Below are positions 23,649 through 57,105 of a stretch of 64,000 nucleotides of DNA, piece by piece. Where the stretch lies: assembly GCA_030141605.1 (NCBI GenBank), contig JAQGDQ010000010.1, positions 62,001-126,000 on the forward strand. The letters run 5' to 3'. This DNA is from Tubiluchus corallicola (lineage: Eukaryota; Animalia; Priapulida). Each line of letters opens with the position of its first letter. Position 1 is the stretch's first letter. The notes beneath the pieces are model-generated. The model was not told where the DNA came from. It worked only from the letters and a program-made list of their open reading frames with translations, and searched no databases. Position numbers and translations under genes: made by a program.

Positions 23649-32683
<9,035 letters not shown>

Positions 32684-33243: not shown

Positions 33244-33607
33244 ATTATATATATATATATATGCATTTTCTTTTTTGCGCATTTTTAATAGCTTCATATA
33301 CATGCACTTCAAAATGATTTTTGTCATTGCTAGAAATCTGTTAAAAGCCGATTTTACGAACGCTTTCATTTTGTCTGTACAAAGCGGATACAAGCAGAAG
33401 TAATGTTTATATAATCTGTAATTGAATGTGACCTTTTTTGCAAGAGAGAAATTCTTTTCTTATTAGGAGGAGAATACCGTTTTTCTTATTCTTCCCTTGG
33501 TTAGTAATACAGAACAACATTTATTTATAATTTTAATTGCAATATTATCAATTAATGATAGAATGAACCAACAAAACAATTATAGTAGTTGATTTGAACT
33601 TCTAAAG

Positions 33608-34341
33608 CAGTGGTTCCCAAAGTAGGGGTAAATTACCCCCCGGGGGTAATATGGTTTTTTTGGAGGGGTAACTGGCACCCCTCTGAAAATTTTTAAAACT
33701 TCGCTTGGAATGCATTTTACGTAGTTTTCTTCTTGAAGAGACTGCCTCCGGCAGGCAACACTGTGTCATGGGGTCCATCAAATTCCAGCAGCAGAACCTG
33801 GAAGAGTTCTGGATAGGAGAGATGGCCAGTTCACCAGTCCTTGCAGAACGGGCATTGAATATACTCACGTGTTTTTCAACAACGTATGTGTGTGAACAAG
33901 GTTTTTCGTCCATAATGAACATGAAAACAAAGAAAAGAAATAGGTTGGACGTGGAAAGTGATGCACGCGTTGCTTTGAGCCTGACGAAACCCAGGATTGA
34001 GAAACTGGCGTCCGAAAAACAGGCTCATCCGTCCGACTAACTGAGATTTTGTTGTTGTCACTCATTTCTTCTTGTTTTCGTTTGTTCGAGTAATAATTAC
34101 TCGAACGAACCTGCTCACTCAGTAATGAGCAGGTTCAGTAATTGTAATTCTTGTTTTGGCAACAATACAACAACACCTGGAAATTTATTTATGTCACGAG
34201 CAAACATAAATAATTTTGTTTGCTTGTGGCATATACGTGTGTTTACTTTTTGAGTTGGAGAAGTAGTACTAGGTGGGGGGTAATGGACACGACCGGGTTT
34301 CCCGATTTGGGTAACGGTCCGAGAAAGTTTGGGAACCACTG
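33608..34341 (+). mobile_element. Non-autonomous hAT (Charlie/Buster-type) DNA transposon, 734 bp, retaining the transposase C-terminal dimerisation region
   Basis: TIR cagtggttcccaaa (33608) and tttgggaaccactg (ends 34341). Perfect 8-bp TSD TTCTAAAG at 33600-33607 and 34342-34349. Internal ORF ...EFW...LAERALNILTCFSTTYVCEQGFS...KTKKRNRLDVE...QAHPSD*. Confidence 0.95.
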
Positions 34342-36218
34342 TTCTAAAGGTTAATTCTTGAAATCCAAAGATTGTTTGTTCGAATTCTGGACCAGTCTTA
34401 CTTCTTGCAAACTTCAGTTTTACATTTGTTTTAACCAAATTCCTTCAAAATCTTCAATAACTGGACATCCAAATGGAATGACTACCTTATAATTTCGATT
34501 ACCTTAAAGATGACACCAAATGTCTAGAAACCTTTTATACTTTCTGTTTGCAATAATATTACGGCTTTTATTTAGAGATATCAGTCATAAAACCACAATT
34601 TTTACAGTTTAATTTTAGCACAAAACAGCAACTTTATTTCAATTTAAATTAAAACGGAATTGAAATTCAAACATGTTAATATGATGATTGCCAGGCAGAT
34701 ACTGCCTGCAAAGAATGCCAAGAACTTATGAAACTTAGCTGTAAAATTATCAAAAAGGAAATAACATTAATAAAGCCAAATACGGAGAAAAAAACGAATG
34801 AGCTTTGCAAAATTTTCAGTAACTAAACTCAATACTGACTGTGAATTTTCTTAAGTAAGTTACACAATGAAGGACGAATATAACAAAATAAACAGGTATG
34901 CAAACAGGTAATGTAGCAGCCATAAGATATGCTAACACTCAAAAATGCCCTCTAATATGAATCTTACATTTCCTTTCTAATCTAACTTTTAGTTACCTGA
35001 TCTATACATTAAAAAAAAACTATTTGAGTTTCTTTTACACAGATAAGTGAAGCTTTTTAGTGCTTCAAATGAACTTAACACTTACAGCAGCATTCGCTAA
35101 ATTTGTACGAGACAATTATACATCACATCACTAGACTAAATTAAGCTTATGCACATAACTATGACTCTGAAAAATTACTGTTTAAGTTTCTGATATTAAA
35201 TGCTTAAATGCAGGAACTTATAAACTGAAATTATAATTAAACTTTTTAAAGCTTAAAAAATGAAATTTTCAATTATTGCTACAGACTTAACACTATTTTA
35301 CAAAATAAAAGAACTTCCAGGAATATAATACAATGAAATACACATATTACAGAAACTTGATGAAGTTGAACACAGAGTTGATTATCATATCGTTCTAAAC
35401 AGTCTGGTAAAGGATGTTTAGCGTATTCAGTATATGGTGTGGCTATATACACTTATCATCATTTAGCAGTCAAACAGAGATTATTTCAAAATGAAGTATG
35501 ATACAGCATAAAAGTACACATACACATCACATTTTCAATGCAAATAGACAGATTAGTACACGTCAACCAAGATGATGTTGTAATATTAAAAGTAAAAACA
35601 TGTAGTATCCATAAACACAACTAGCTAGCAGCTACGTACATTAAGTTATCAATTCGATCAACAAAGAATCAGATTAATTAACGTTACATCAACTTATATT
35701 TATCCATATGAAATTACATTATAGCCAAGGGTACATTTGGGTTCATTTACACAACTAAGTGTAAATGGGATTATGTACGTAAATGAAAACGTCAGACTTG
35801 CATGTCAAATGTCCTGACAACATATTCATTTTTGTAATGTATGAGCTATCAAATTTAATTATAACACAAGCAGATGTTTAGAAAAAGTCCTCTCAGACGG
35901 CCAACTGTCTGCCATAAAATTGCAATGTGGCTTCAAATGTGTATTTACATTAAATTTCAGTTAGCTATCTCACATTTACCAAAAACAGCAACAAGTGCTG
36001 GCAACTTACCAATATTGAGAGACATTCGCTGTTCTATACCAATGTGTTATTTGGTAATGCATGTAATGTGTTATGCTATCTCACTGATGGCTTTCCTGTA
36101 CACATAACATTCTATACATCACGTAGAAATTGCATTCTAATTAAATACCTGCTCCACCTCTTCCGCAATCAAAACTCTTACTTATCCTGGTATTTTAGCT
36201 CACTTTGATCGCTAAAGT

Positions 36219-39200
36219 TCATAATGTGAATTCAGACTCTGACAATTCCTCAAATAGATTTCGTTTAGAATTTGGAGAGCGTGAGTGTGAACTGGAGTCA
36301 GACATGGCTTGCTCTCTGACATGTTCAAGAGATTCAAAAGTACCCTCATCATCAGAACTACTTCTCCTACGTTCTATAGAAGCTCTTTCAGCATGGTGCT
36401 GTATCTGAGATGCCAACATTTCTAAACCTGCCCATTCTGATGTACGTTCCACTTTTTCTTCCTGTCGATCTGTTGCATTATTTTCAATCAAAACTTCATT
36501 CTTCTGCTCCTCTTCTTGTTGTATGCTTTGCCTTTGTTTCACTTCCTCCTTATGATTTTGATGTTCTATCATATGTTCAATTTCCTTCTTTTTCTCAAAG
36601 ACATGGCCTGTTTCTTCTATTGGTTCCAGATTTTGCCCTTTTTCTTCCTGTTGTTCAGTTTTTTCTATCATGTCCATTTCTTGTTTTAGCTTCAGCTGAG
36701 TTTCTTTTGCATGATGTACTTCCTTTTGTATTTCCTTTTCTTGCTCACCATCTCGTGTGACATCATCACTTTGTTTCACTTTGTCTCGTATCTCCTCTTG
36801 TGCTTCCTTAACTTCCTCCACTTTCTGTTGTCTTTCCAGTTTTTGTATGACTTCTTCCTGCAATTCTTCTGCACACTCCATTTTCATATCTACTTGTTCT
36901 TCTGTTTGTTCAATATATTGCTGTGATTTTTTTGCATGTTCTACTTTAATACTCACTTCCTGCTTTTCTTCAAGTTTTTGCTGCAAAAATTCCTCCTGCC
37001 TACTATTCTCTTCCTGTTTTCTTTCTACCTTCTGTTGTAATTCTACTCCTTGTTCTTTTTCCTCTATTCTTTGTTGTCTCTCATCCTGTGCCTTCTGCAC
37101 CCCTTCAGGTTGATTCTGCTCACCACTCGGCTCTAACGTTTTTTCTGGTGTTTGACACAGAGACTGAGCTGTGTATTTGACTTTTACTGTGGACAGAACA
37201 TCGACATTTTCACATGTTTCTTTTTCTAAGTCAGAGAAATTTGTTTTTTCAGGTGCGTCACTATTTGTTGTTGTAGTAAAAAATTCACTAGGGCTATGAT
37301 CAACTGGAGTTGATACAACTGACACAATCACATCTTCAGTATCAACCAGATCAGTGGTTCCAATAGGACCAACAGGTTTTTCCTTTTGACTACAGTTCAA
37401 GCAAATATAGTCTTCGTCTTCATTTAAATCATCTTCACTCAGTCCTACACAGTTGTAATGGAACCAAAGTTCACAACCTCCATCACATTGCACCCAATCA
37501 ACGGCTTCACCCATTGGTCGATAGCATGGGGTAGCTGCGCATATGTTATCTGGGTCATCGTCTTTATCATCATCTTTTGCAACTGGTTCGGATTTGACCT
37601 TTGCTAAAGCTTTCTCTTTGGTATTTGTCGGTGCCATTTTCATGGTTTTCAATTTCTTTCTTCCCACATCTTTTTTCTGTATTTTCTTCGCTTCATCTTT
37701 CAATTTTCGTTTGCGACCTCTGAGCTCAGAAGGTTCTAACTTGATTTTCTTTTTATTCTTTTCCTTTTCTACTTTTATTTCACTGGATGTTTCCTGGTCC
37801 ACAAACTCCATGTATTTTGGCTCTTCCTTTACCTTGCATGCTTGAAGGATCCTCCATATGTGTTGTGTCTCATCAAGTGAAACTTCTAGCAAATCACCTT
37901 CCATCATTAAGTCTTCAAGTTGAAGTCTTGCAGTTGAGGTCAACTCGAGGACTGGTGTTTCAAATTGACGTGGAACAATTGGTGACTTTCGGCTGTGCTT
38001 ACGAGGAGAAGAAGTAGACAAGGTTTTTGAAGCAGAAGAGTATGCATGCTCACCACCTCCAAATGAAGAAGGCTGGACATTACTTTGTACAGGTCCTGTA
38101 GTGAATGACTTTGTTCTAGGCTGAGATTCCGACTCGGGAAGGTGCATTTCAGATAGCAAAGGCGGAAAACATTCAGATTCCACCACAACTTCACCTGCGA
38201 CCGAGAAACCTATATTTGTATTCTGGTCAGTATCCCCACCAGCGCTGAAGGCATTTGGAGCTACAGTCGTCAGGTGACTCTGTAACTCTGGGTTATTAGC
38301 AGCCTTTTGTAATTCAGCAGTGATGATTTTTTCAGTTTTTTCTCTTGCTGCTTGTTCCACCATTTTTTGGCTAAGAACAGATAACTTAGCAAGAGCAGAT
38401 GCCAGCTCGCCTGTTGCAAGTGCCTGTCGGGCTCTATCTTGCCAACCCATTGCTCGCTCTGTAAGACATTGCAAAGCTTCTCCTTCAGGCAATCTTACTG
38501 GCAATTTCTGCAATGAGACTAGCAGGGACAAAATTGTTTCCAGCCTGGGTCTACGTGATGTTAAACAATGTGGACATAAAAATTTCAGATCTTTAATTGC
38601 CTGCATTGCAGCAGCAGCAGAAGTCTTATTTTTCGGCATTCCGGCTTTGGGCAGTGGCACGCAACTGCTATGAAACCAGTCCTCACAAAGTTCACACTGC
38701 AACATGAAGCCACTTCTTCGTTTTCTGCACACACAGTACTTGGCTTCACCCTTGTCTTCTAGTGCCTTTTTGCAATTCTTTTTTCTGTAGTTTCTCATGC
38801 TCTCTATTTCTGTAGTCTCAGCAGCTTTGTAAGCAGCAACTATTGCTGCTGGATCCCTAGTGTCTTCAACAGAAATATCCAAACTTCCAAAATGTTCAGT
38901 TTTTTCTTTTTCATCTCTCATTCTCCTTTTTTGTCGTTTACTATTAGTATCTACACCAATATCTGCCTTGGGAGAAAGAACATCAAGTAACGAATGTGAA
39001 GAATTCTTTTTTAGAAATGTTCTAGCAGTTCGTTCCCGCCAAGATTTTGCTGCTGCTACTTGACTTTCAATTTGTGGTAACTGATCAAGCCGAACAGGTA
39101 CTGAGCGCCCTTTGCTAACAAGACATTCTAGTACCTCAAGATATGGATAATGTTCGGAATTTTGGAGTAATTCAATCTTCAAAGACCAATCCTTGGCTTT

Positions 39201-41425
39201 TCTAACAGCATCTTTCAGAGTTGATATGTTAGGAAGGTAGACGGGTATGTCCTCAGACTCATGAATAATAGCTTCTATAGTAGTAAGGGCATGTCTTGGT
39301 TTTGCCTGCAAACAAATTTGTGCCTTTTCTTCCCAGCGTTCACTCATCATTAACAATCCTTGCAGTTCTCCAACAGTCTTCTCAATTAAAGGATGTGGCA
39401 TCATATTAACACCCATCTCAATGTACTTTTTTAAGTCATCTACCATAACATTACCTTTATCTGATAAGGTTGACTGTACTTTCTCTAGCCACTGTGCTTG
39501 CTGAACACACTGTTTTAATTGGGGTATCTCACCAAGATTGAGCTCAAAAGATTGCCCAAGTTCTAGCAATTCTTGAAGTTTGTCATGTTCTGGCATTTCA
39601 GTTGCAAGCATGTGCTTTACTTCTGCTTGAAAGTTTTTAACTCTGTTTAAGAAATCTTTAAGAAGATCTGTTTCAGGAATTCTGCATAACAGGACTGTCA
39701 TTTCTTCGTGCAGAAGTTGAAGTTCCTCAAGCGAAAGTTTGTCTAAAGGATGACCGGTTTCATCAACTTGTTTACTGCGTGTTCGTACTTTACGAGAAAT
39801 CAACTGCTGAACTGCATGTGCACATTTTTCTGCATCCGACACTCCAGACTTCAAAGCCATGATCAAGTTATTTTCTGGATACTGATTTTCAACTGCTTCA
39901 TCAAGTAATGCTTTCATTTTGGTAAGTTCAAGCTTATTCTCATTCTTAAGATGTAGGGCAGCTTTTGCTTTTAATATCCATCTATCAAATGGTTCTGATC
40001 GAGCCTTAATTTTACGCAACATTGAGGGCAGCTCATCCAATGTATATCGGTATTTCAATGAATAATTAGTTTTTACACAAGAACACAGTTTATCAACATG
40101 GTGTAAACACACAAGCTTGTCACTTTTACAAGTACATGCTACAGCTGACAGGAAGCATGTAGTCCTGCAGTGAGCACACTGTCTCTCGTCATCTGGCAGA
40201 AGCTCAAAAGCCTCACGCTCGGCTGAGAGTACTCCTTTTTCCAGTAGTTCTTTTCGAAGGCGCTTTTCTATTTCCACCATCTGCAACATATCTTGGAAAG
40301 TAGCAGAAGCGAGCTTTATATTAAGAGTCTCAGCCTCTAAAGCAAGCTTACAAATAAGTTCGTTGTGAGAAAACACATTAAATCTGTGATACAACTGGTA
40401 GCTATCTATAGCCATACGACCCCATTTGATCCAGTCAGCAGGGCATACATTAACTGCTTCAGCACAGTTATATCCTTGATTGAATCCTGCATGATAAGCA
40501 CGAGGAAACGTCACCACGAACTCACCGGCACGCTGATCTGTGCGCACGATTGGAACACCCTTTTTCATGAGGAGGTTTGGATGCATTATGGTCACCAGCT
40601 GATGAAGTAAATCAGGCTGAGACTCAAATAATTCTGGCACCTGATCTAACATTGCTTCTTCAAATATTTCAGCTTGAGGCCCTGGCACTCCGTACCATGT
40701 TTTTGGCTCACCCCAGTGAAGATAATTCACTGAATAGCTCCAATGATCTTCATTGTGCCAACAAAATGCAGCAAAGCACATGCCAACATACAACCAAGGT
40801 ACTTTCATTCCAGAAATATCTGCATTTATGTGTTTTAACACGGAACCATCTAACACAGACAGATTGTTCAAGTTCCAAGGTGAGAAACAGTATTCCACAT
40901 CATCAGGATAAAGATCATGGCAATCTTTTGTCGGAAAACCACTGCCCTTTTCCAATGCACTGATATCAGCCCCATATTCAACAGTTATGCTTTCATTAAT
41001 ATCCCGCGTGAGACGCCAAAATTCCTCCTCAGTTGTCTCACAAGGAACCAAATGCACTGGCATATTGAAGTATTCTGATTTGAATGTATCTGCCATTTCA
41101 CCAAATGATTGAAGGGAGTATGATTTTCCAGCATCAGGAAATCCAACTTCTCTTGGTGTGTCACACTCAGCAAGAATGCATCTGCAAAACATTATTTTTT
41201 TAGTAAAACACTATAATACATTTGTTTCCTTATTAATATGCTAAGTTAATCTACAAAGGTACAATTATCGGTTATGTCCAACAGACATTAATTCTAGACT
41301 AACTGAAAGTTTATGCTTAAATGGTTAACTGGATCAAATATTGCACTAGTGCTTCCTTACTTTTCATCACTCAAATATATATACATTTATATTATGTATT
41401 TATTTATTATGATATTATTTTTATA

Positions 41426-41476
<51 letters not shown>

Positions 41477-42928
41477 TAAATTTAACAACATTTGAATCAA
41501 TAAAAGGGCATTTTACAGTATTGTAAGTCTTGCAAATTTTAGCTTATAAGTTTAAAAACTGCTTATAATTATTCTTTAAGACACTACACTTACCACAACT
41601 GTGTTCTCGTCGGCAGCTTAAATGCTACCAACTTATGCAATATCGCTTTTCTAACCGCTTTTAGGTTTCTGGGAGCTTTTTGAGTATACTTTTGGCAATG
41701 GACATTTTTTGAATTGCAATAATATTCAACAACTTCCATTGACTTACATAATAACTATATAAAACAGATACAGTGAGTTGGATTTTAGGCTTTGAGATCA
41801 CCTTGTATGATCTAATTCATACATCTAATGGATGATATCAAAATTATTCATTTTCAGATAAAATGCAATCCAATGGAATGAAGCCTTTACAACTTCATAA
41901 ATGTGAGATTATGTGGGAAGAAGTATAGAATTTTTAATACTATTTCAGTCTGGCTACTTACACAAAGTAAAAACATAGTTAATAAAAATGGTATTTGTAA
42001 TAAACATATCAAACCTTGCGCATTTCCATTTGTTCATTGGAACAACCTCCAGTGGTGGAACTAGACAGTAAGTATGGTAACAATCATCACAGTTATCACA
42101 AAGTAATAAATGTTTATCATCTTCATGTCCCCGACATGTTTTGCATGCAAATCGATCAGGATGAGATACCGGCAATCGATTATCAAAGCTCGTCAGAAGA
42201 TTAAGATCAAGCTCAGATGGCTCACTACTAAGAATAGCTGCTTTGGGACCGGGGCCAAAGAACTGAAGTCGCTTTAGCTCCCGGTTGGCGGAATAGTCTA
42301 CTTTTACATCATCTTCCAAGTTACGAACAGCACGCTTAACTCTTCGAGCAAACACGGCATCAAGCTTTTTAGTTTCTGGTGATGCAGGTTTCGAATTCTT
42401 TGGAGATGTCGCTTCTCCTTCTGCTGTCATATCGAATGGATATAAGATTTTCTCGTAATGGTGCCGCAAAGTGGTAGCCACACCCCTGGAAGGCGTGTAG
42501 CCCATTCGACTTGCCACACAATGCCACTTCTTCTCAGACGTGATCTTCTCTAAGCCGCCAATTTCTTTTACGCATTTATGGAGTTTATACAAATCCAGGA
42601 CCTTTCCTTCCACTGTGGGAAGAGTCAAGGGCAATCCTTGCAGATCCCAGAATTTGGCAATTTTGTCCAGAAAATTCATCTTAACACGTGAAGTTGCCTC
42701 CAGTTCATTTAGTCTTTGAATTCGTGGAGTAAACCTGAACTTATCCACATCAATAACAAATGGTGGCTGCCAATCAGGAGGCGGAATAATCTTACAAATT
42801 CCACACTGCTCCGCCTCAGGACGAACCTTCTCTAGAAATGCTAGAGGATCTCTCCACTCCTCCTTGTCTGGGTGATACACTGGACATTCTGGCGGTGGTA
42901 TGAAAGGTAGTGCCTCTTCATCAGCCAT
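36219..42928 (-). CDS. KDM5: Lysine-specific H3K4 demethylase KDM5/JARID1/lid, about 1958 aa, only 2 coding exons (42928-42015 and 41181-36219)
   Basis: JmjN (PPECPVYHPDKEEWRDPL), ARID (LDLYKLH...KKW..VA), PHD1 spanning the phase-2 intron (CAR/CIL), JmjC with Fe ligands CWHNEDH and AYHAG, C5HC2 finger, PLU-1 region, PHD2 and PHD3 (WVQCDGGCELWFH). ATG context aacATGg. Confidence 0.96.
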
Positions 42929-42989
42929 GTTAAGTTTCAGATACCACTGTCTCACTTTAAACCATTTATACCTCTAATCAGAATACGTT

Positions 42990-45646
42990 CTATCCCCTGG
43001 CAGACTTGAGTACTTTCTAGAAATAAAATATGAATTAATATTAGTAATTAAAGAAGGCTGAAAGCTTCTTTGGTTCAAGTTTACACATTAAATACTTTAT
43101 TATATTAAATGCAACCTATATTCATGAAAAAGTTATTTCAAGTGTTGCATTAAAAAATAATGCTGCCACAAATATCTGAAATATAAGGATATTAATGTCT
43201 CATTTTTCAACAAAGTTCACATGCTATCAGATAATTAAACATTTTATCATCACAGTATGTAATGTATAATGTGTAATGTATATATGTAATGTAATTATAC
43301 AAAAATGTTATTCTTTCCTAATGTTGCTAAGCTACCTTGAGTACTTAAAATTGACAATGAGCGTAAGAGTTCATTGTTAGAATTAGTAATGGATTTAAAG
43401 AGATTCAATGTACGTTTGGCAATGTATCTTTGTGGGATAGGTGTCGGCAAACCATGCAGTCATAACACACTGACAATTCCTTGAAATTTGACGAACGCAG
43501 TGTGAAATTTGTCTATATTCCATTGCAAGTACACAAACAATGTCAGTTAAATAAAATGTTGATCTACCATAGAAAGACATACAACATGAATATTACAATT
43601 TCAATAAAACATGCTTAGTAGTATCAGATTTCAAAAAAAGCATAAAAGTGAAATAGCAGATGTAATAAAGGCGCTTTTGCAACGTACAAGATCTACTGCT
43701 TGATCATAGAAGACGACATGCCCTAAGTGCCATTTTAATACTATTCTATTAATTTCAGTATGAGGTACATTAGTATGTTTGCTTTTTTCTGAATAGTACA
43801 CATTTAGTCTTTTCTGTATCGAACAGCATGTCATTTTCAATGGCAAACTTGTCGCATATTTTTAATAATCTTTTCAATGCATTTACAGATGAGCAAGCAG
43901 AGTTAAGTAATCTGCATAACTAAATGCACTAAGGAAAAACATAGTCTGTTATTTTTTAGTTTGAGTAACTACTGTGAACAAAATTCCCGAAAGCATGCTG
44001 CCTTGTCTTATGTTGTTGGTTGCTGTAAATTCAAAAGATTTAGAGTCATTCTAATTATTCTACACATATTTAAATGTTAACGTAAGTGTTCAGCATCAGC
44101 ACAAGCACAGTTTCAGCTAATTAACATTGCGTTTCCAGCTTTGAGAACAGAATAATGATATTAATGCGATTGAAAACCTCGGAAAAATAAATTAGGCAGT
44201 CATAGACAGTTTACATATGTTCAAGTAAACAAGGCATAACCATTTAATGCAACTTACTGCCAATTACAAGTAAGTACTTTGCAAGTTACAAAAAATTAAA
44301 AAAAATACCAAAATACTGGGCTCTTAATTTAGTAGTTGCCTATAATTGTTTTCTAGAATGCAAAGTATTTAGTTTACACATTTAGGTAGCAGTAAGTGTT
44401 TTTTAAAACTGCATAATTGAGATTAGACATTCCAAGTCAATTTCACTGAAAACTAGTGGTTTCTTTAGTCTAAACAATATTTAAATAAATGCAAGAGCTA
44501 AATAGGTAGCAGCAAAACTATTATGTTACTGCCAAAGTAAAAAAGTACTAATACTTACATGGCTATTAAAGATACATACAGAAGTATACATGTAAACAAC
44601 ATCATAAATACATATAACAAAGTACCATAGGGCACTAACTTAACTACATCAAATCATGATTGTTGCGATGTGACCAGAACCTATACCTTACCTTGCAAAT
44701 CATACTGCTGTTGTGTAAGCAAATTACATTTATGCAGCTGAAACAAAACTCACAATTTAGTGACAAATTAATGAATTACAAATTTACTTCCTAAGCTCTA
44801 CTGTTAGCAACACTTGTCTTCTTTAATTTGTCATATTACTATACATCCCTAAAAAATCAATTTTAACATTGTATAATAATTAATGACAATACAATGCATA
44901 GAAAGAGTTTGTAAAAAACCAGCTCACCTTCCGAATTGCTTCAATGTGTGCAGATGTGATGGTATTATCTTTTAACCCTTGAGCGTATTCATTTGCAGCT
45001 AAAGCAATTTGCCGTAAGAAAAGCATGTGGTTCAAAAAAACCTGAAAAAGAAAAGCCAAGTTGTTTATCATATTTAAAAGCTTATGCAAATATTTGTATT
45101 GTAGTTAAACCCACCGTTATAAGGTTAGAGTAAGATAGAATGAAAAAAAACGGATAATAGAAAATTTTATCAGTGCATGAAAGATGACTGTTCAATTTTT
45201 CAGTTTTGGCAGAAATTAGATTTGATGTACAATCTTGGCTATCAACTGTGATGGCCATTTTCAAGGTTAAATGGGGTTGAGTTTTTCAGTTGTGTTCAAC
45301 ATTATTACATTGACGATTAATAAATTATAAAAGCTCAAAGGACAATAATATTGTCAAAGGACGATAATATGTGCAAATGAAAATAAATTGCGTAAATAAT
45401 TTCCACCGTACGTAGCAGACACTGTTTAAATATGTTAAAATAGCAACAACGACATTGCTAGTGTTATTAGCCATGATCATATCTAATGAAAATAGGTTTG
45501 GCCGATTCAATCTGCCATCTGCATCACGCAACCTATTAGTACTTGAGTAGACTTACTAGCAGTTCGCAATTAGTTGTCCACTTAGCTTTCCTGCAGTTTT
45601 GTCTCAAAGTTTTGCGTAGTTTTCCCTTAGAAAAAGTTCGCTTCAT
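42990..45646 (-). CDS. CENPW: Centromere protein W (histone fold), 76 aa, 3 coding exons (45646-45557, 45041-44928, 43016-42990)
   Basis: Spliced product MKRTFSKGKLRKTLRQNCRKAKWTTNCELL/VFLNHMLFLRQIALAANEYAQGLKDNTITSAHIEAIRK/KVLKSARG*. Both introns are phase 0 GT-AG. Resembles CENP-W as I recall it (KR..P.G.L..., DLLVHLNCLLF..RLA, I..EH.., KVILKKSRG*). Confidence 0.88.
43400..44080 (-). mobile_element. Degraded non-LTR retrotransposon RT remnant in CENP-W intron 2
   Basis: Minus-strand fragments EFTATNNIRQGSMLSGILFTV (cf. GVRQG..LSP.LF) and AFSYADYLTLLA (cf. YADD). Confidence 0.6.
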
Positions 45647-48345
45647 GATGATTACAATATTAGATACTCAGGGACGTAGTTTATGATACTAAACATTAGC
45701 TGAAATTAATCAGAGAATGCACACACCACAAAAAAATCATAAATTTAACGTGCACATTAAATTCGTGTAATTCAGTCTTGAAGTGCGTGAAGTTAAGACA
45801 GTGGTGCACGTAAATATTCTTTGGTGAGCCAGAGAGCGAGTTGCGTCACTAGATATTTTCCACGACCGCAGCAGCACAGTACCAGTCCAGAAGAGCAAAT
45901 TTACTAAATCACTACTACCAGTGAAGTAAATTTTGAGAATCTAATTGAGTCAGAAGATCCACAGACAGCAAAGTAGTTGCTGGAATATGTTCCAATAGCA
46001 ATGAAAGTAAGATAGAGAAGAGGTGGCGAGCTGGAAATCTAGCCAAAATAATAATGGCTATAAATGGATTACAAGAGTTAAAGCTGATTATATTACTTGT
46101 GTCTCACACAATGACTTTCATTTGTGCCTATCTGACCAGATAAAGTAAACAAACAACACAGCTATGCTGAATGAATCATTGTGAACACCGAGGCACTGAC
46201 GACCACTGCCCAAGCCGAGCTGGGACTAGTGAATACTGAATGTACCATAGAACTGTGATTCTTAAACAGCTAGAAGCCTTCCAGTAGACGAATTTCAAAT
46301 GAGAGGGAAGGAATTTTAGTTAGGGTAGTCAAGAAGAAACGTTTAGGCAAAATAATACGAGTTTTATGATCTAATAAAACAAGTTTTTTATTCTTTCACT
46401 CAATTAGAAAACAAAATTTAATTTCCTAAATATCATTATCTTAATGATTGTCATTTTAATAGCATAATGTGAAAAAATTAGTAAATAACAATTACTCAAA
46501 ATAACGGATGGAGGAGAGGAAACCAAGAAGAATGCAGAGTGGGAGTCTACCTTACCATTGGCCTACAGATTACAGAAATCAAACGTGGAAGCCCTGGCAA
46601 TGCGTCACTGGAGTTATTCAGATTAGATCTGCAAATTGGACTGTATTTGCCAATGTAAGTCAATATCAGAATTTGTTGACATAATACTAATTAAAGATTC
46701 AAGGAATAGTAGATGCATATGGGCATACTCTTGTTTGAGCTCTGACATTGATGCTGCAAATTACTAATTTTCTATTAATGGCTGGTAGGATGGATTACCT
46801 ATTATTGATGTCATTGTTGATTCGAAGAGTCTGAACAGGTTGCCCATAATTATTAAAACAGACTCAATTATAATTAGTTATTGGCACGCAAGTTCGGCGC
46901 AAATGACAAAAATTGACAATGTAATAATACGGACAAAGCTTGGTCAACTTTATCATAATAGCATGGTCAACTAAGTACATTTTTATAAAATAAGTAAGTA
47001 AACAACTAAGCAGAATAAATCTTTATTGTAATCGCAAAGAACACAAACACATGGAAAACATTTCCTAAACTTCTAGAACACCACCGGAGTAAAACAGTAA
47101 AAAGACAGCAAAGTTCAGTAATTAGTTAATAGATTTTAAGACTGTTGTTGTTGTAGCATGGCATTTTTAACTAAAAATAAAATCTGCTTCTATTATACCA
47201 AATAATAAAAGTGATAATTTGACAGCTTTAGTTGCAAAACATTAAACTCACAGTAAAGTGTACTTAAACAATATCCAAAATGTATTAGATGAATGTTAAA
47301 GGTGTCTTATGTTATTTTACCAGCTTTTAAATGTATTGAAAAGGGTCAAAGCTACAAGACCAAGTTGTACTCGGGAAGCTATGTTCCATTTAACTACCTC
47401 CTGCAGTTAAAAGGAAAGTAAGATGTTGAAGACTCTCACCAGGCTTGAGAGACTCCTGCAACAGCTATCAGGAATAAAAATGTACCAGCATGCACACAGT
47501 CTCTTTCTCACAGAGTATTTGTATCACTGCTGAATATAATGGTAATATCATATTTATACCCATAAAATATACATTTACAATCTAATACATTTTGATATTA
47601 CAGCAACATTATATACACATACATATTACGTTACGGTTACGTTACGACAACGTTACGTTATAACGGCATCGTTAATGTTACCATAAACACAAATATCGCA
47701 CTACATTTTTATAAATTTTAAGGAGATTAACAACTAGAAACAAAAACTATTAGACACTATTCATCACATAAGATGCTTTGGTACAGTAGTACATAACTCT
47801 TACAAATATGACAAGATACACTAATGCAAGCAACTTTTGGCAGACTCGTTATGAGACATGCATATTAAACATGCTACTAATATAGGAAAATTATAAAAAA
47901 TTCTGCTCTTAAAATTATTGGAATATCAAAATCAATAGTAAAATGTTATTACTATAACATTCAGATCTATTACAATTTACAAATACCAACATATATGCCA
48001 GCAACACTAGCATTAAACTAACTTCTAATAAATGAAACTAATAGTGTACTAAACACACAATATTTCATCTAATTTCATTGCAAGTACAGGCATCATTTTA
48101 AAAAGATAAGCTATGCATTAATTATTACAATCTGCTTTTGCACCTAAGGTTTTTGACTACAAATAATGATCTAGTCCAACTATTGGTTCTCACAAATGTT
48201 TCGTTTTTTTCACTATTGGCTTGGAAACTTAGAGTTAGACAGGCTTGTCATCGGATCATTCCATGAGATGCACCTTAAATTTCAAAAGAACATGTAATAT
48301 AGACAAAACTACACATAACAGGATTCTATTTATAAAATGAAGATG

Positions 48346-48640: not shown

Positions 48641-49369
48641 ACCTCCTTAAATACAAGTAGTTGTAGAGCTTCAATCATAACAGTCATTAGGAACTGGACT
48701 ATCACAAAATGGTGCCACAAAACTAAGTTATTAAAAGCACCTACTAGACTATTTAAATTCTGGAAATCCATGACGGCTTGTGTATAGGTATTGTGGAACT
48801 GTAGCACCCTCTATTTTCACTCAATATTATCGATAATATTCAATATAATAAGTCTTTTTTTAGTTCTTTCTTTATACTTGCACGAAACCAGAGCACGTGA
48901 GGGTAGTACTCTTTGCTTCACAGCACAGCATAGTGCGCTCACAGCTCCAGCAAAGTGGTGTTGCGCACAAGTCTGAGATAAGACGCTGTGAGCTGCACTG
49001 CTAATGTCTGCTGCAAGGTAGAGAAAGTGCTGTCGCTCACGCAGTGTTTGTTGTCAGTTGTCATGTGCTTAAAAACCGTGTACCGGGCATATTCTTGAAC
49101 TGCGTCAATTTAGGCCATTCGTAAGTAAAAAATATTTTTTTGTTTAGGATTTTATCAAGTTTACGTATAAATTTTCACATGCTTGTTTGTTTAAAATTAC
49201 AAATGACAACATTAAAGCTACATCTGTTCGTTTCGTTTTACACAGTATTATAACAATGGCTAAAAATTAGTAGGCTAACAAGTAGCACCCCCCTCCCCCA
49301 ATTTTAGCTATGAGCTTTCACTGCTGGAAATATAGATATTAATAGTTAACTACCTGACAACACTAGAAT

Positions 49370-52300
49370 TTATATGCCATACATGACTTTCGTGTTTTTT
49401 CTACTGGCTGCTATAACTTCATCGATGGTATCTTCACGCAACTCTGCAATTTCGGCAGCAGTATGAATGGCCATCCCAGGATGTGACCATCTAGTTAGCT
49501 TATCAACCTGAAGAAAATCGCAGTAATTTATTTAACCGAATCAAAAATTTAACAAACTTGTCTCATCTTATTAGTCTTTTTATTACTTTGTAAAGCGATG
49601 AAACATTTTGGGCAAGGTGGTCAAATAGCAGTTCATTAAGGTGTCCACTTAACAGTACTAAAAATATGTAGTGTAATACCTGTTCGATTACTCCATGGGA
49701 CATAGAATGCTATTAGAAAGATGACAAGATATCAGAAAAAACAGTAAAAAGAGAATGGATTGAAAAGTGAAATTCTGGCAAACGTAATCACTTATAACAG
49801 AAGTCATAGCTGTGAAAGAAATTTTACCCTTGCTGGTAGAAAATACGGCGCATCGGTTTCGATGAGCAATCGATCAAGTGGCAATTCTTTCACGACATGA
49901 CGTACACTGGTGGCACTGTAATATGTCACCACAGGTGTGATCCCAATAAATAGATTTGGAAACGCTTCCATCCATTCCTGAGCTTCATTCCAATCACCGG
50001 TGAAGCAATGGCGATGGATTTTTGTGTCAGTAGGAACAATCTAAGAAGGTAAAAAACAAAAGGCTCTTTACATCTCAGGAAAAAACAAATACACAAGGCA
50101 GAAAAAGATCATAAAGGTCTGTTTAACATTTTACTTTACACCGATTTTTTAGATTCAAACATGAAGCGCAGAAAATAACTAAGAGCCGAGTTCACAAACA
50201 TGAAGCACAGAAAATAACTAAGAGCCGAGTTCACACCTAATATCTAAAGGTAAGCAATGCCAAATCAGGTCACTAAATGAATGGGTGACAACTAAAATAC
50301 TGACTATTTTGATACTGACTATGGATGGTTTCATATTTAGATATATACAAGACCACATGTAGTCAAGTGGAAAACTACCTTTGTTGGTTTTGTAGAGTTT
50401 ATTAGATTACAATAAGACAGGTCTGGTCCTGCCACAACAACCCACATAAAGTAGGTCCTGCAAGCAAAAATTGGTGGGACTTCAGAGCAAGATGTTACAC
50501 TTCAAGGCTATAGTTAATTGTTTACAATTTCTTGATCTCTTGAGAAATTATAATTCTCGTTTCATCTTGACTGTGACTAAAATTCCCAACAGGAAAAGTT
50601 CATGCCCTGTCACTCTTCTATTTGCTTATTTAACTGAATTGTAAATATTACAAAAATCTGTTTGCTTAGCTACTACTTCCACCACCAAATTGGAGTTCTA
50701 CTCACGGTTGAAGCATGCACACTTTATTTAATACTTTCATCATCTTATTATTTGAATTTGTTTCATTGCATTTCTACTGCAATTATTGGTTTTGTTTTGA
50801 CTATCGTGAAAAATACATTTTTTGTCTCATCATGCAGAATAAATACTTTGAATTTTTAGACTGTTAATTATTAGACTACCAAATGCAAAAGACATTTTCA
50901 CCTTGCAATTGTTGTTGGATTTGACCTTGATCACATGACTCACTTTAACGATAGAAATAAAAAATAAGTTAAGCTTCTTAATGTTTAAATTTGGAAAGAA
51001 CCATGCACAACATCTCAAAATGCACAGTAAGGCAGCTGGAAAATTAGTCCTAGCATCTCTCTTACCTCCTTCAAGATTCGCAGACAGTCTTCAGATGCCA
51101 TTCTGCAGTGTATAATAATCGGCAGCTCGTGTTCCAGGGCTACGATAAGTTGACTTCTGAAAACTTTAACTTGAGTTGTCTTATCACAGTTATTTCTAAA
51201 AGACAAATTAAAAGGCAATAAATTATCAGTTCAATACAGAAAATGACACTGATAAAGTGAAACTCGACAGTGTTTTCTTTTAACAAGGCAACAATACTAC
51301 CAACCTTCTATGATGTGATATTTATGTGACAAATAAGTTCCTTAATATTCTACCTAGCTGCTAGAAAAGTATTTACAAATAAAAAGTTATCACAATAACA
51401 GACATGCTATTAACTTTTGTCAGGCCTCATTAACTGGTGCTTAAGAGAATGCACATAAGACAAAGTAGCACCAGGGTGTACTGCAAAAAGTCTTAATACA
51501 GAGTGCTACAAAATGAGATAATAAGATCACAGTCTTAACCATGCAGTGATCATGGTTAAATGCACTTATTTTGTCTGCACTTTCTCCAACTCATTTAGTT
51601 TTCTTGAGCTTACCTGTTTGAATAATCAAGGCCAATTTCACCTAAAGCCACTACGCGAGGATGCTGCAATGCCTCCTTCAATGCCTTTTCTGCCTCAACT
51701 GAGTAATTGGAGGCATGGTGCGGATGACACCCAAATGCTCCCCAAACACTATGGTCCTAAAAATATAAACAAACGAATCATAAACTTGACACCGTTAATT
51801 CTACAAATTTAAATTGTGATTGCTGTCGAAACTTCATTTAAATAAGGTACTAAAAATGACACTTCTGGATAAAAATTTACTGGACTAAAATGTCATCAAG
51901 TTTCTAGACATGCCAAGAAAAAAGGAAAATGTTGTTTCAAGATCGGATTACCTCAGTGAGTACTATTTCTAATTCAGTGCCTTAATCTGATCAAGCCTTC
52001 ATTTAATATTCATTACTAAATAAGTATGCAGAAACAAAATTTGGTTGTGTACTATGGATAGTCTTGCAATTACGATTTTTAAGATCACTGTAATGTAAGA
52101 GATTCATATAGCTAATCTAATGTTCATCCCAATATGGTGCATGTTGGTTGGGATACTTTAGCCTTGAATAAAAATTTGGCAAGTTGTAGCTATGAGTTTG
52201 GCTATTCCAATCTGGTAGCACTTTTGAGTGAGATGGCTCTGATGGCTCTAGCATAGGCAGGCAGTGATCAAAATTTGTAGTTTAATATAATTTGATTGAT

Positions 52301-55300
52301 CAAAATATATTGTGATGTAATTGTATGTGTGCTTTCACAACAAAAACATCCATAAGTCAATAGATAGTCACAAATCTTGAATCTTCACTTCATGAGGATC
52401 ATTTTGATAGCAAGTTTAGTGCTCTATGTTACTTCTAAGCTGGGATAATCCATGTTGAAGTTGAGGTACACGTTGCACACTGAAAACATAACCTTGAAAA
52501 AATCGCTGTTAAAGTTTGCCGTCGTTTTTTGTTGCATTTCTACAAAAACGCTTAGCGACCATACAGAAGTGTGGCTGCTATATAATTTGCAAGGGTACAC
52601 TAATGTTATGTTTAAATCCAATAGATGGTTGTCCCAGATGAAGATTTGGGCTTGGCAATAGAAAAAACACAAACAATGCAATTACTACGAAGAGCTACTA
52701 TCAGAATTCAAAAATACTAGGTTTTTAAAATTCCAGTACTAGCTTTTAGACAAAGAAGTGGGCAAGGGGTTACAAAATTAAATTTCTGAATTTTCTGAAT
52801 GTTTCCTGATGATTTGATACTAGAATATAAATGTCCAACATATTTACAATTTGTTTTTATACAAAAACAAAAAATTGACATTTGGCCCAATTTTAGGTGC
52901 ATCCTACTTTGAAGCATCATAGCGTAGTTTTAACTATGCCCACTTATGGATAGTTTGCAAGGATATATATTTAACAGACTAACATGAGAGCTGTTAGTTT
53001 ACACGATTGTTGTATAGCAAACTTACATCTAAGTGCTGTGCCCACATTTGTCTGTTTTTGAAGGTTAACGGGTCACAGAAGACTGTGACACACCCTTCGT
53101 AATTTTTCGGAAAAGTGGAGCGATTATTATTCTTAAATGTTTGAAAATTTGAGCATCCAATCCTAAAATGAAATGTATGCAGTTAAGATGAGCAATAATA
53201 ATAATAGTATATTATTTATTAAATAAGGTACCCCACATTTGCAACAATGCACACAATTAAGTGTAGCTTTTCGTTTCTTTTTTATACAAAGCTTTCAGTC
53301 AAGACAAGCCACCACTCAAAGACAGCATTAAGCAATACTGTCACATTTTTTACGCTTATTACTTGCTCATTGCAAAATAAGACATTACTATTTGGCAATA
53401 AATTTACAACTTGAAGCAACTAGCAAGCAACTTGAAGTTTTACTGAAAATTGTTTTTGAAATTTCTAAATTTTTAAATACATCTAATAAAACAGATGCAA
53501 TTTATTTAATCAATAATACATAAAAGTAAATCATAAACTGTTTCCTAAACACTAAACAAACCTGTTCATCAAAAAGTCAATATGGCAGTGGCTATCGATA
53601 AATGGTTCCTTGCACTGTAAACTAAACATGTTTGTTACTTGTCCATTAGTAACACTTCCGGTAGAGTAACGCCGTTGACCATATGGTGACCGACTTTCTT
53701 GGTACCCATTATACGCCCTGTTCAAATTAAGACGATGAGGCTTGCCTGATGGTTGGTAGTCACTACGGATGCTCAAATCCAAATGTTCTAAAGGGGCTTC
53801 TGATGATCTGCTACAAAAAGAACTCTTTCTGCTGGTTGTTCCTCTTGGAAACTGAACTGGACTATTGGACGTCACTACATGACAGCTGCGGCTATTCTGC
53901 ATTAATGGAAGATTTCTTCTTTGCAGCTTAACATGGTTTCTATGAGTATTCTTTTCCACTGTTTCCAAGCTGACATTAGATGATGAACAAAATGAACCAT
54001 TTTGATCTTGTCTTGGAGCAGCCAGATAACTGCTAGCAAATTTGGCTGCCTGTGCATTTGATGTCACATTTTGATGAAATGTATCATTCTTTGAAGAGAT
54101 GCTTAACCTTCTCCTTGGAGAGCTTCGGTGCAGACAGTTTTTTTGAGGGCTGGGGTAGAATGAACCATCTGATCGACTTACCGCCACATAATGATTGCTG
54201 GGAGAAATAAATGAACACGCAGTTGGTGTAACGTCTTTAAATTCGTTACTCATTTGTGGAGGGCAACTTCTATAGGGATACCAGTAGTTTGTCTGAGGGG
54301 TATTTTCAAAAAAGTCAAAGCTAGCATTACTCTTCAAGTATGATGGATCATTATAGGAATGTTGTGGTGTGGTTGAGTAAGTGTGAGGCGATGCACCTGG
54401 AGCGATATATGAAGTACAACTGGTAACACTTCCAGGAGTATTTCTTTCCGATTCCGTATTACTACTATTCATAAAATATGATGAATTGTTATTTGGGTCA
54501 CTGGATGATGCTCTACTTGAACTACCAGGTACAACAGGATAACCACCTTCAGAAAACCCAGGTGGCAGCCATCTAGGTGATGGACATAACTGCATGTCAG
54601 TCTGAATAAAATGCTGCCATGCTAATTGAGTAACACTATAGTCAGACTCCTTTCCAGAATTCAGAAAACTTTCTTGAAATTGGTACTCTCTAGACATATT
54701 TTCTAGGTTGTGAGTATAATCGACCCCCATGTCCAGGGTAGAATTCACAGAATTAAGATAGTTGGAGTTTCCTGAAGAGGCTTTTGGATAGGCATCGACC
54801 GACAATTCTTCACTTTCTTCTCCCATTTTTATTAAATACATGTTTTTAAACACTTCATCTGGATTGGGTTGATATGAAGCAGGGAAGCCCGGGGGAGTTT
54901 TGACATTTGTAGGAGCTGTATCTCCAAATGCCGGATTACTAACTACTGTCACTTGATCTAAGTCAGACTTGACTGTACGATGCATAGGACCATCAGGAAG
55001 AGGAATTTGCTTTATGTCTACTTCAGTTGGGAAAACAGCAGTAATATAATTGCTTGCATCAGCAGGGCTGCCAACTTGATGAGCAGATACTTGACTGTTT
55101 ATCACACCAGTGTTACTGATTGCATTAACACTGCTATGGTTATTGGTATTTTTTTGAGCAGCTGTTTGTTCAACACTTATCACTACAGTGTCACTAAATG
55201 TTTTAGAACCACTATTTTTATTGAAATGTTCACCTCTTTGGTCATTGTTCACTGTGTACTGTTCGTCAATAACAAGATCAGACTGTTGATTATGTGAGTG

Positions 55301-56518
55301 CATGTTGATTACTGCCTCATCAGGGCTCCTTTTTAGAGGTTTACTATCATTGAGGTTTGTATCCTTTCGATATACACCATTTGCAGATTTACTGGAAGTA
55401 TGCTTGTTCTTACCAACATCTGGCAAGGGTATACTAAGAGGGTCTTGAACAAAGTCGTGATGTGCATACATTGCTTTGTTCAACAACCTGTCCCTTTCTT
55501 TTGTAACAAATGTGCGGGCAATATCAGACTTTTTCCTTGCTTTATCACTGTTGAACTTGGAACACTCCAAATTCAAACCTTCTGCAGATGTTTTGTGAAA
55601 ATCAGAACGATATTTCAGTATCTGTGCCTTTACATCAATACCAGGAGGAGATGCACAAAAAAGGGCAGGCTTGTAGACATGTTTTGCCAGGACGTCACTT
55701 TGTGCATTTTCACTCTCTTCCAACTTTTCTGGCGACTGCTGCTGGGAAACAAGCTCAGTGTCTGTTTCGCTATCCGCTTCTGCATCTATCTCATAAGGTA
55801 CAAGAGGTGGCTGCTTATCCACTCTATCACTATTATTAACCACCTCGTTCCTAGAAAAACTATTTTTCCGCTGTACTACGCAAACTGATTCGACACTGTT
55901 GCTCCTACTGCTCATTGCAGCAGGCTTCCCATTCACTGTGCCACTATCACCACATCTGACATTAGAAAGCAAAGAAGGTGTGAAAGCATTAGCTACAGAC
56001 AATGACTGTTTACTTTCTTTGTGACTGCCAATTTCAAAAGAATCACCTATTAAGTCTAAATTTCTTAGCAAGTTGCTCTTGCTTTGAAAACGAGATACAC
56101 GTTGTGGCTGCGAGTGTTGCTTTTTAGTTTTCTGGCTAGTCTGCTGCCGACAATCTTCATCCCAATCTTCTTCAGCATCTTTATCGACAGGAACCTTATG
56201 AGGTAGACGATGAATATCTTGATCATTTTTATTTGCTACAATGTCTGCAGATTGGTTTTCACAGTCCAAGTCTAAATGGGAGTTTGCACTTATTGATTTC
56301 TCAGTGGCAGCTGCTGCCATGTCATACCTAAGTTTTTTAGATGAAACAACGTCTAAGTGTACATTATTCTTAGTGTCATTCAAACTAGCAAATTCTTCAG
56401 AACGTTTGCGACTTTGGCTCGACCGCTTCTGATGGTGTAGCTTTACCAATGCTGGTTTTGTTGTCATAGATTTGCAGTTAATTACATTGTGAGTTTTGTG
56501 TTCCAGACGCTTTATCAT
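49370..56518 (-). CDS. TATDN2: TatD-family nuclease TATDN2 with a long low-complexity N-terminus, about 1238 aa, 6 coding exons (56518-53562, 53162-53027, 51756-51614, 51195-51066, 50040-49828, 49507-49370)
   Basis: Phase-consistent GT-AG splicing gives FIDSHCHIDF, FPKNYEGCVTVFCDP, VWGAFGCHPH, ALGEIGLDYS, PIIIHCR, KIHRHCFTG, LLIETDAPYFLP and SHPGMAIHT. The FCDP and WGAFGCHPH motifs plus the long N-terminal extension point to TATDN2 rather than TATDN1 or TATDN3. Confidence 0.92.
50156..50233. repeat. Tandem duplication, 2 copies of 39 bp, intronic
   Basis: caaacatgaagc(g/a)cagaaaataactaagagccgagttca occurs twice with one mismatch. Confidence 0.9.
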
Positions 56519-57105
56519 ATTTATTAAATCTCAATGCTTATTATGAGGTTTTGTTAACATTTGCGCATCTGAAAAGGTAATATGGAAATTGTTAAAAGGT
56601 GTAACCTGCTGTTTGCTTAAAAATATGACCTGAGTGCAGTTAATTTATCCAGTCTCAAAATTTAAATAAAATAACTTACAATTGTATAGATAGAACATTT
56701 GCAATCAGGTTTGAATTTACCATTTAGTTATTATAGATATGTTCATAAATATTTAATAGAATTGTAAACCTAAGTACGAAGCTCGGCTGTAAATGCAAGT
56801 AGACAACTATAGGAGTGGAAAACAAAATTTAATGAGGCAGCTATTGCAAACAAATGATTATGTAGAACAGGCACTAAAGCTTGCACTAAGAATACACTTA
56901 GATCTGTCAGAAAGTTAAACTACAAGTTCTGTCATGTTTGCATTACATAACATTTTACAACAATATCTTTTCACAAAATTAAAGAAGTGATTAAGCTATT
57001 GATCCAGTGAATTCATAGCCATTAGTATATAAATGTTAATGCACAAGAAAACCCTACATAAAAATAAAGCTTAAAAAATTTGTCTTGAAATTTTATACCA
57101 CTTAC

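What the first reader, a model, noticed from the sequence alone, without database searches (positions are those of the whole stretch)
36219..42928. KDM5 is almost intronless (one intron, 4.96-kb coding exon) among intron-rich neighbours: possible retrogene that captured the CENP-W promoter
Seen: about 5.9 kb of CDS with a single intron (42014-41182), whereas the adjacent DEG/ENaC gene has 8 introns in 1.5 kb of CDS and the TatD domain has 5. The ORF and catalytic H-x-E...H residues are intact. Established: vertebrate KDM5 genes have more than 20 exons. Inference: a processed or partly processed KDM5 copy inserted just past the CENP-W stop, which would explain the bicistronic layout. Extensive intron loss in place is the alternative.
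Basis: partly seen in the sequence, partly recalled or inferred. Interest (0 to 1): 0.7.

Follow-up and report, generated by a model that had tools for sequence, protein, structure and literature searches.

The report
Likely KDM5 retrogene behind CENP-W
In this invertebrate genome an intact histone-demethylase gene (KDM5) has one intron where its neighbours have many and starts 61 bases after a small centromere-protein-like gene; it is likely an old mRNA-derived copy of a second, intron-bearing KDM5 and may share that small gene's transcript, which no RNA here shows yet.

Summary
Observation confirmed: a 1,958-aa KDM5 with all domains and H447/E449/H535 intact, one 833-nt intron, beside DEG/ENaC (8 introns), TatD (5) and a CENP-W-like gene (2) whose stop lies 61 nt before the KDM5 ATG. 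The retrogene reading gained support. None of 10 intron sites traced in other animals' KDM5 is used, and the single intron lies 13 nt from the nearest. Assembled contigs show short pieces of a second KDM5-like locus at single-copy depth, one ending in a GTAAGT donor, with more standard sequence. The window's protein evolves about 2-3 times faster, yet an 8-10% divergent relative shows purifying selection. Limits: the second locus is seen only as 55- and 63-nt pieces, no poly(A) or target-site duplication survives, no genome is held, and intron-poor KDM5 arises in insects and an acoel. Promoter capture is untested: no RNA contig bridges CENP-W to KDM5. Best reading (0.6): old functional retrocopy in the CENP-W 3' end that gained one intron. 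Known kind of event, not found in print for KDM5.

The parts
42015..42928 (-). KDM5 coding exon A (ATG, JmjN, ARID, most of PHD1), 914 nt
41182..42014 (-). Single KDM5 intron, 833 nt, GT..AG, phase 2 in codon R305; holds a (TA)n tract; single-copy; 13 nt from the nearest traced ancestral site
   Evidence: its 3' part is also present in relative run X5 (41156-41366)
36219..41181 (-). KDM5 coding exon B, 4,963 nt (end of PHD1, JmjC with H447/E449/H535, C5HC2 finger, PLU-1, PHD2, PHD3, E/Q/K-rich tail, stop)
35854..36218 (-). Probable KDM5 3' UTR ending near an ATTAAA at 35859
   Evidence: X3 contig 35890-38566 stops 31 nt before it (run kind not on record)
45557..45646 (-). CENP-W-like coding exon 1 (30 aa)
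   Evidence: spliced to exon 2 in run X6 (joint 45042-45558)
44928..45041 (-). CENP-W-like exon 2 (38 aa, histone-fold-like)
   Evidence: Pfam CBFD_NFYB_HMF E 0.037; Atlas histone-fold clusters, CENP-W cluster 0.79
42990..43016 (-). CENP-W-like last coding exon (8 aa + stop), continuous with the KDM5 5' end
   Evidence: splice to it not seen in RNA
42929..42989 (-). 61-nt spacer: no AATAAA/ATTAAA, one TATAAA at 42970, a 2-codon uORF; KDM5 frame open for 15 codons upstream, with AG sites ending at 42974 and 42947 in frame with KDM5
41059..41121 (-). Stretch matched by a different single-copy-depth contig (54 of 63 nt, depth 178.4, 753-nt record): trace of a second KDM5-like locus
   Evidence: table 8
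40925..40979 (-). Stretch matched by a second KDM5-like locus in X3 whose downstream flank is a GTAAGT donor with an in-frame stop and whose upstream flank reads as standard KDM5; X1 depth excess fits the same piece at depth about 171
   Evidence: (tables 2, 7)
43298..44040 (.). Multi-copy repeat relic in CENP-W intron 2 (LINE-like by my recall; no Pfam hit)
23682..32683 (+). Downstream neighbour DEG/ENaC, 9 exons, tail to tail with KDM5
49370..56568 (-). Upstream neighbour TATDN2-like gene: 3.0-kb exon plus 5 introns in the TatD domain

Best explanation
The gene is an intact, one-intron KDM5 that is likely an old retrocopy: a spliced KDM5 mRNA was probably reverse-transcribed and inserted just behind the stop of a CENP-W-like gene, likely gained one new intron later, and would be transcribed at least partly from that gene's promoter. 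Shown: gene structure, intact domains and catalytic residues, the 61-nt junction, absence of introns at all traced sites, fragments of a second intron-bearing KDM5-like locus, faster protein evolution, purifying selection. Inferred: that the second locus is the parent; that insertion was by retroposition; that the intron is a gain; that CENP-W and KDM5 share an mRNA. With five ATGs ahead of it on that mRNA, KDM5 would need reinitiation or leaky scanning, or more likely also its own shorter transcript, with the weak TATAAA serving as the CENP-W poly(A) signal that is often read through. The protein is predicted to be an H3K4me2/3 demethylase by homology, with a PHD1 reader that has drifted more than the catalytic core.
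For: (1) 0 of 10 intron sites traced in other animals' KDM5 are used: oyster ~205, ~236, 309; amphioxus ~258, 461; human 348, 400, 461; insects and sea urchin ~619; fish and insects ~773; bowfin ~978. The single intron is 13 nt from the nearest. (2) Second locus: 54 of 63 nt in a contig at depth 178.4, against 173.5-187.4 for the window's own contigs; chance expectation 8e-7. In X3 a 55-nt match is followed by GTAAGT (P about 0.002 for the five loose letters) and a stop, and preceded by codons that match up to 8 of 10 residues of other KDM5s (window copy: at most 5 of 10, 188 homologs). The two pieces lie 79 nt apart in the window, yet no joint links them although the 753-nt contig runs at least 237 nt past its match, which implies a second interruption near the human 348|349 site. 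Both copies have Thr at a column where 0 of 188 and 4 of 272 homologs do, hinting that they are sister copies. (3) Derived protein: lowest identity to 9 references in 11 of 13 regions, PHD1 0.47 against 0.73-0.79; terminal branch 0.63 against 0.13-0.37 for other protostomes. (4) Functional: 19 of 40 listed X6 differences synonymous against 11.0 expected, P 0.003; X6 holds KDM5 exon B pieces and spliced CENP-W exons 1-2. (5) The published ancient neighbours CCDC77 and IQSEC (PMC7530604 Table S1) were not detected upstream. (6) No canonical poly(A) signal between the CENP-W stop and the KDM5 ATG.
Against: No A-tract of 8 or more in 3.2 kb downstream and no direct repeat over 11 nt around the gene; expected for an old copy but no support. 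The second locus is two short pieces; only the 63-nt piece is listed for X1, the 55-nt one is inferred there from bin depth; by identity alone the 55-nt piece could be chance (0.17 expected); its donor at 390|391 matches no site I traced elsewhere; it could be a relic or two different loci. Long-exon KDM5 occurs without retroposition being needed: insect open frames end only at ~619, and an acoel has a ~1,423-codon exon. The KDM5=CCDC77 pair is recorded for only 2 of 5 non-vertebrates (by column order amphioxus and sea urchin, my reading), so its absence says little for a protostome. KDM5 belongs to the human chr 1/3/7-12/X paralogon (PMC3826523) and TATDN2 lies on 3p25 (recalled), so this may be the ancestral KDM5 chromosome. 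The long branch could be lineage-wide; I had no close relatives to control for it. No RNA bridges CENP-W and KDM5.
Confidence: 0.6

Rival explanations
1. In-place intron loss: this is the old KDM5 locus (or a DNA-level duplicate) that came to lie behind CENP-W, and its introns were erased by recombination with cDNA of the long transcript; 3'-biased loss would spare the two CENP-W introns at the 5' end. The second locus is a duplicate that kept introns.
For: Possible shared ancestral linkage group with TATDN2 (plus recall); no poly(A) or target-site duplication; intron-poor KDM5 in insects and an acoel; tree places the protein beside arthropods, without support.
Against: Neighbours keep 8, 5 and 2 introns; not one of 10 traced sites survives, including three in the first 800 nt; the intron-poor copy is the derived one.
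Confidence: 0.2
2. Retrogene replacement: the window copy arose by retroposition and is now the only working KDM5; the second locus is a decaying remnant of the parent.
For: Same intron evidence as the best explanation; only two short pieces of the second locus were seen, and no X6 contig matched them.
Against: The 10 codons read from the second locus are closer to standard KDM5 than the window's, which suggests it is still under selection; the read tool drops human-like contigs, so holes prove nothing.
Confidence: 0.12
3. Close neighbours only: KDM5, whatever its origin, has its own promoter in CENP-W intron 2 or exon 3, CENP-W is polyadenylated at the TATAAA, and the second-locus pieces come from another organism or an unrelated fragment.
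For: TATAAA at 42970 could be a poly(A) or TATA element; five upstream ATGs make translation from a shared mRNA inefficient; the second-locus 10-mer is most like chelicerate KDM5.
Against: The second-locus contig has host single-copy depth in X1 and a like piece is in X3; 61 nt leaves little room for both a 3' end and a promoter.
Confidence: 0.08

Closest known systems
KDM5/JARID1/Lid H3K4 demethylases (human KDM5A-D; PDB 5fwj, 5ceh)
   Same: Full domain order and catalytic triad; E 1.8e-173 to KDM5C; about 60% identity to mollusc, nemertean and arthropod KDM5.
   Different: One intron instead of many; 41 of 478 otherwise invariant columns changed, six of them in PHD1; E/Q/K-rich tail of about 380 aa; starts 61 nt behind another ORF.
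Functional retrogenes that borrow a host promoter; intronless mammalian KDM4D/KDM4E; retrogene replacement (Maeso et al. 2012, title seen in a reference list)
   Same: Loss of all traced parental introns, intron-bearing paralogue elsewhere, faster evolution, intact ORF. KDM4D/E and promoter borrowing are recalled, not checked here.
   Different: A 5.9-kb multi-domain CDS in a protostome; sits in the terminal exon of a histone-fold gene; has apparently gained an intron; no KDM5 case found in my searches.
Bicistronic animal mRNAs with a small conserved upstream ORF (SNURF-SNRPN, Drosophila dicistronic genes; recalled)
   Same: Short conserved ORF (76 aa) directly ahead of a long ORF on the same strand, out of frame, with no canonical poly(A) signal between.
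   Different: No transcript joining the two was seen; the upstream ORF is a histone-fold, CENP-W-like protein.
Ancient KDM5=CCDC77 and KDM5=IQSEC gene pairs (PMC7530604 Table S1)
   Same: Same gene family.
   Different: Neither partner detected in 21 kb upstream; neighbours are CENP-W-like, TATDN2-like and DEG/ENaC.

Membership tests
KDM5/JARID1 | JmjN-ARID-PHD1-JmjC-C5HC2-PLU1-PHD2(-PHD3) order | tested here: met
KDM5/JARID1 | Fe(II)-binding H-x-E...H | tested here: met
   H447, E449, H535, aligned to 5fwj
KDM5/JARID1 | H3K4me2/3 demethylase activity | not testable with these tools
   homology only
Retrogene | Lacks the introns of the family | tested here: met
   0 of 10 sites traced in other animals; also lacks the 390|391 intron of the second locus
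Retrogene | Intron-bearing parent in the same genome | tested here: inconclusive
   63- and 55-nt pieces at single-copy depth, one ending in a donor; whole locus not readable, no genome held
Retrogene | Poly(A) remnant and target-site duplication (young copies) | tested here: not met
   these marks decay in old copies, so this lowers certainty rather than excluding the origin
Retrogene | Inserted at a new site, absent there in outgroups | tested here: inconclusive
   CCDC77/IQSEC not detected but no animal loci could be fetched; possible shared linkage group with TATDN2
Retrogene | Intact, expressed, under selection | tested here: met
   open frame; exon B pieces in X6, an RNA run by guess whose CENP-W contig is spliced; 19 of 40 synonymous, P 0.003
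Bicistronic mRNA | One mature mRNA carries both ORFs | tested here: inconclusive
   no contig bridges CENP-W exon 2, exon 3 and KDM5; only short contigs were available
Bicistronic mRNA | Both proteins translated from it | not testable with these tools
   needs ribosome profiling or reporters
CENP-W (upstream gene) | Small histone-fold protein matching PF15510 | tested here: inconclusive
   exon pieces only: CBFD_NFYB_HMF E 0.037 and Histone E 0.093, no PF15510 hit; Atlas CENP-W cluster 0.79 at rank 14, same 76-aa length; exon 1 no hit; exon sizes 114 and 27 nt match human CENPW by recall

The most novel reading that the evidence does not exclude
A retroposed KDM5 is expressed from one mRNA with the inner-kinetochore subunit CENP-W, tying an H3K4 demethylase with a remodelled PHD1 to centromere-protein expression in dividing cells; and an alternative acceptor (ending at 42974 or 42947) splices CENP-W exon 2 in frame to KDM5, making a histone-fold-KDM5 fusion that could bring demethylase activity to centromeric chromatin.
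Probability: 0.08. Interest if true: 0.8.

Novelty: new member of a known kind. Interest (0 to 1): 0.45.

Why it matters
If right, it is a rare invertebrate case of a large chromatin enzyme duplicated through RNA and kept, next to a conservative parent, which allows a test of how a KDM5 duplicate diverges (reader domain before catalytic core). A shared CENP-W/KDM5 mRNA would add a bicistronic unit linking kinetochore supply to H3K4 demethylation. Such a layout could also hide one of the two genes from annotation; an annelid survey found kdm5 in only 1 of 3 species (PMC12153100), which deserves a recheck, though nothing here ties this genome to annelids. The kind of event (retrogene borrowing a host transcript) is well known, so interest is moderate.

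Tried and rejected
Whole-genome search for a second KDM5: no genome held; read-laying was the substitute. Relatives' loci: the collections are prokaryotic or viral, so synteny could not be compared. Close homologs: none above about 63% in three searches; phylum unresolved (searches put the protein beside arthropods or unplaced; some motifs are mollusc-like; named TatD hits are mostly chelicerate). No RNA holder listed; gaps in X6 and X3 over 40252-43000 and over CENP-W exon 3 prove nothing because human-like contigs are filtered. X3 depth of 90 on the KDM5 3' end against 2-19 on other listed pieces looks like 3'-biased RNA, but the run kind is not on record and contig depth cannot rank genes; not used as evidence. 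Small X1 depth excesses at PHD3 (~37391-37430) and 38820-39171 may be more pieces of the second locus; too short to use. Intron as a recent transposon: rejected, flat single-copy depth over 41636-42691. Intron moved to the ancestral site by another donor: rejected, the frame hits a stop two codons into the intron. Stop read-through fusion CENP-W-KDM5: rejected, frames differ (88 nt from exon start to ATG). Repeat relic as a reverse transcriptase: no Pfam hit. PDB search with CENP-W exon 2: nothing. Bacterial promoter scan: irrelevant. Two ML trees timed out and one FastTree run too. Earlier findings on this genome or look-alikes: none. No complex or structure prediction was run.
Full report
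Observation. The window is from a protostome animal; the phylum is unresolved. On the minus strand, exon A (42928-42015) and exon B (41181-36219) join across an 833-nt GT..AG intron into a 1,958-aa ORF without internal stops. Pfam finds the full KDM5 domain set, the best solved relative is human KDM5C at E 1.8e-173, and H447, E449 and H535 are in place. Neighbours are intron-rich: DEG/ENaC has 8 introns, the TatD domain 5 (three junctions confirmed by P0390, 195 of 207 identical), and a 76-aa histone-fold gene 2. One intron against about 24 expected gives P 7e-10, or 3.5e-5 at 3 introns per kb. The TatD gene also has a 3.0-kb exon, but outside any Pfam domain.

The upstream gene. Its exons are 45646-45557, 45041-44928 and 43016-42990, and the KDM5 ATG follows 61 nt after its stop. 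Run X6, a relative about 8-10% divergent, splices exon 1 to exon 2. The CENP-W name rests on weak histone-fold hits and on recalled exon sizes; it is likely, not proven. The spacer has no AATAAA or ATTAAA, one TATAAA at 42970 and a two-codon uORF; five ATGs precede the KDM5 ATG on the predicted joint mRNA. The KDM5 frame is open for 15 codons upstream, and AG sites ending at 42974 and 42947 would put CENP-W exon 2 in frame with KDM5; that can easily be chance. No contig bridges exon 2 to exon 3 or to KDM5.

Intron positions. No animal genomes can be fetched here, so I traced splice sites indirectly. Human KDM5C variants c.1243-2A>G (PMC9778367, passages) and c.1583+5G>A with p.E468Gfs (PMC5813334, passages) give introns after c.1242, c.1401 and c.1583; through the 5fwj alignment these fall at window residues 348, 400 and 461. 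Isoform indels in 9 protein pairs gave oyster sites at ~205, ~236 and 309, amphioxus sites at ~258 and 461 and a bowfin site at ~978. Ends of unspliced frames among 386 of 389 proteins with hits gave ~619 (several insect-type frames and a sea urchin) and ~773. All 10 distinct sites are uninterrupted in the window, and the window's intron (CDS nt 914, phase 2) is 13 nt from the nearest, the oyster site at nt 927. It is therefore likely a gain; part of it is present in relative run X5, so it predates that split.

A second KDM5. Laying contigs at 80% likeness showed, in DNA run X1, a 753-nt contig at depth 178.4 that matches 41059-41121 at 54 of 63 letters; the window's own contigs have depth 173.5 and 187.4. 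Chance expectation is 8e-7. In run X3, loose ends at 40925 and 40979 bound a 55-nt match: upstream it reads TQAVDEDVTV, standard KDM5, and downstream it breaks into GTAAGT with an in-frame stop. X1's depth excess in the bin ending 40931 equals 7 letters at depth 171, as the same piece would give; this is arithmetic, not a listed row. The two pieces are 79 nt apart in the window, yet table 5 (6 joints, none hidden) has no joint between them, which implies another interruption near residue 348, the human site. The second locus scores a mean 4.5 and best 8 of 10 identities to 188 homologs, the window copy 2.8 and 5. Both have Thr where 0 of 188 and 4 of 272 homologs do. Against: the pieces are short, the 55-nt piece alone is not beyond chance by identity (0.17 expected), X1 may be the source of the window, and the donor at 390|391 matches no site traced elsewhere.

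Rate and selection. The window protein has the lowest identity to 9 reference KDM5s in 11 of 13 regions compared with 6 controls, most of all in PHD1 (0.47 against 0.73-0.79) and JmjN (0.60 against 0.71-0.85), little in JmjC (0.79 against 0.79-0.84); 26 of 268 and 15 of 210 invariant columns are changed. In a fast ML tree of 23 hand-picked rows its branch is 0.63 against 0.13-0.37 for other protostomes. A lineage-wide rate cannot be excluded. Of the 40 difference rows shown for X6 (of 486 over all runs, all in the low-complexity tail), 19 are synonymous against 11.0 expected, P 0.003.

Location. An earlier scan note pointed to a KDM5-CCDC77 pair; I confirmed the rows KDM5A=CCDC77 and KDM5=IQSEC in Table S1 of PMC7530604 (abstract, passages and supplement rows). 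CENPW and TATDN2 do not occur by name in that file. No coiled-coil-like frame outside microsatellite repeats lies upstream and 0 of 69 upstream frames hit Pfam. The pair is recorded for 2 of 5 non-vertebrates, by my reading both deuterostomes, so this is weak for a protostome. On the other side, KDM5 is in the paralogon of human chromosomes 1, 3, 7/12 and X (PMC3826523, passages), and TATDN2 is on 3p25 by recall, so the window may lie on the ancestral KDM5 chromosome. No poly(A) remnant or target-site duplication was found. Intron-poor KDM5 also exists in insects and in an acoel.

Mechanism. Most likely (0.6) a KDM5 mRNA was retroposed into the 3' end of the CENP-W-like gene, became expressed by read-through past a weak poly(A) signal, gained an intron and diverged while the parent stayed conservative. 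Retro-origin overall, including replacement of the parent, is about 0.7; in-place loss about 0.2. I put a shared mRNA at about even odds, on layout alone.

Literature. Searches for KDM5 + CENP-W + bicistronic and KDM5 + retrogene + annelid gave 0 papers. One search gave one, PMC2579438 (passages), which discusses a retro-origin for KDM1, not KDM5. Listings showed no such case. PMC12153100 (passages; supplements unreadable) reports kdm5 in only 1 of 3 annelids. KDM4D/E, SNURF-SNRPN and Drosophila dicistronic genes are recalled. The library lacks most subscription papers.

Verdict. Real feature, retrogene origin likely, promoter capture open; new member of a known kind; interest 0.45.

Noticed in passing
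window 600-8600 (+): Cluster of secreted-looking Gly/Tyr-rich and acidic (Glu/Asp) repeat proteins, apparently tandem paralogues, resembling cuticle, cement or biomineral proteins.
   Followed up: no
window 33600-34440: hAT transposon relic (Dimer_Tnp_hAT E 1.3e-6) with very high copy depth in X1, between the DEG/ENaC and KDM5 3' ends.
   Followed up: partly
window 48770-49270: Second very high-copy repeat just behind the TatD stop.
   Followed up: no
window 43298-44040: Low-copy repeat relic in CENP-W intron 2 with a short tandem tail; LINE-like by recall, no Pfam hit.
   Followed up: partly
window 53562-56568 (-): TATDN2-like gene has a 3.0-kb exon encoding about 990 aa with no Pfam domain ahead of the TatD domain.
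   Followed up: partly
window 36222-37380 (-): KDM5 carries an E/Q/K-rich low-complexity tail of about 380 aa after PHD3, with degenerate internal repeats, still under purifying selection.
   Followed up: partly
P0250, P0388, P0387: An acoel KDM5 appears as two genomic frames of 1,432 and 283 aa, so about one intron: an independent intron-poor KDM5.
   Followed up: partly
window 45684-46884: X3 contigs at depth 9-24 upstream of CENP-W exon 1 with no recognisable ORF; possible divergent non-coding transcript or background.
   Followed up: no
PMC12153100: kdm5 reported absent from two of three annelid annotations; worth rechecking for hidden or fused gene models.
   Followed up: no
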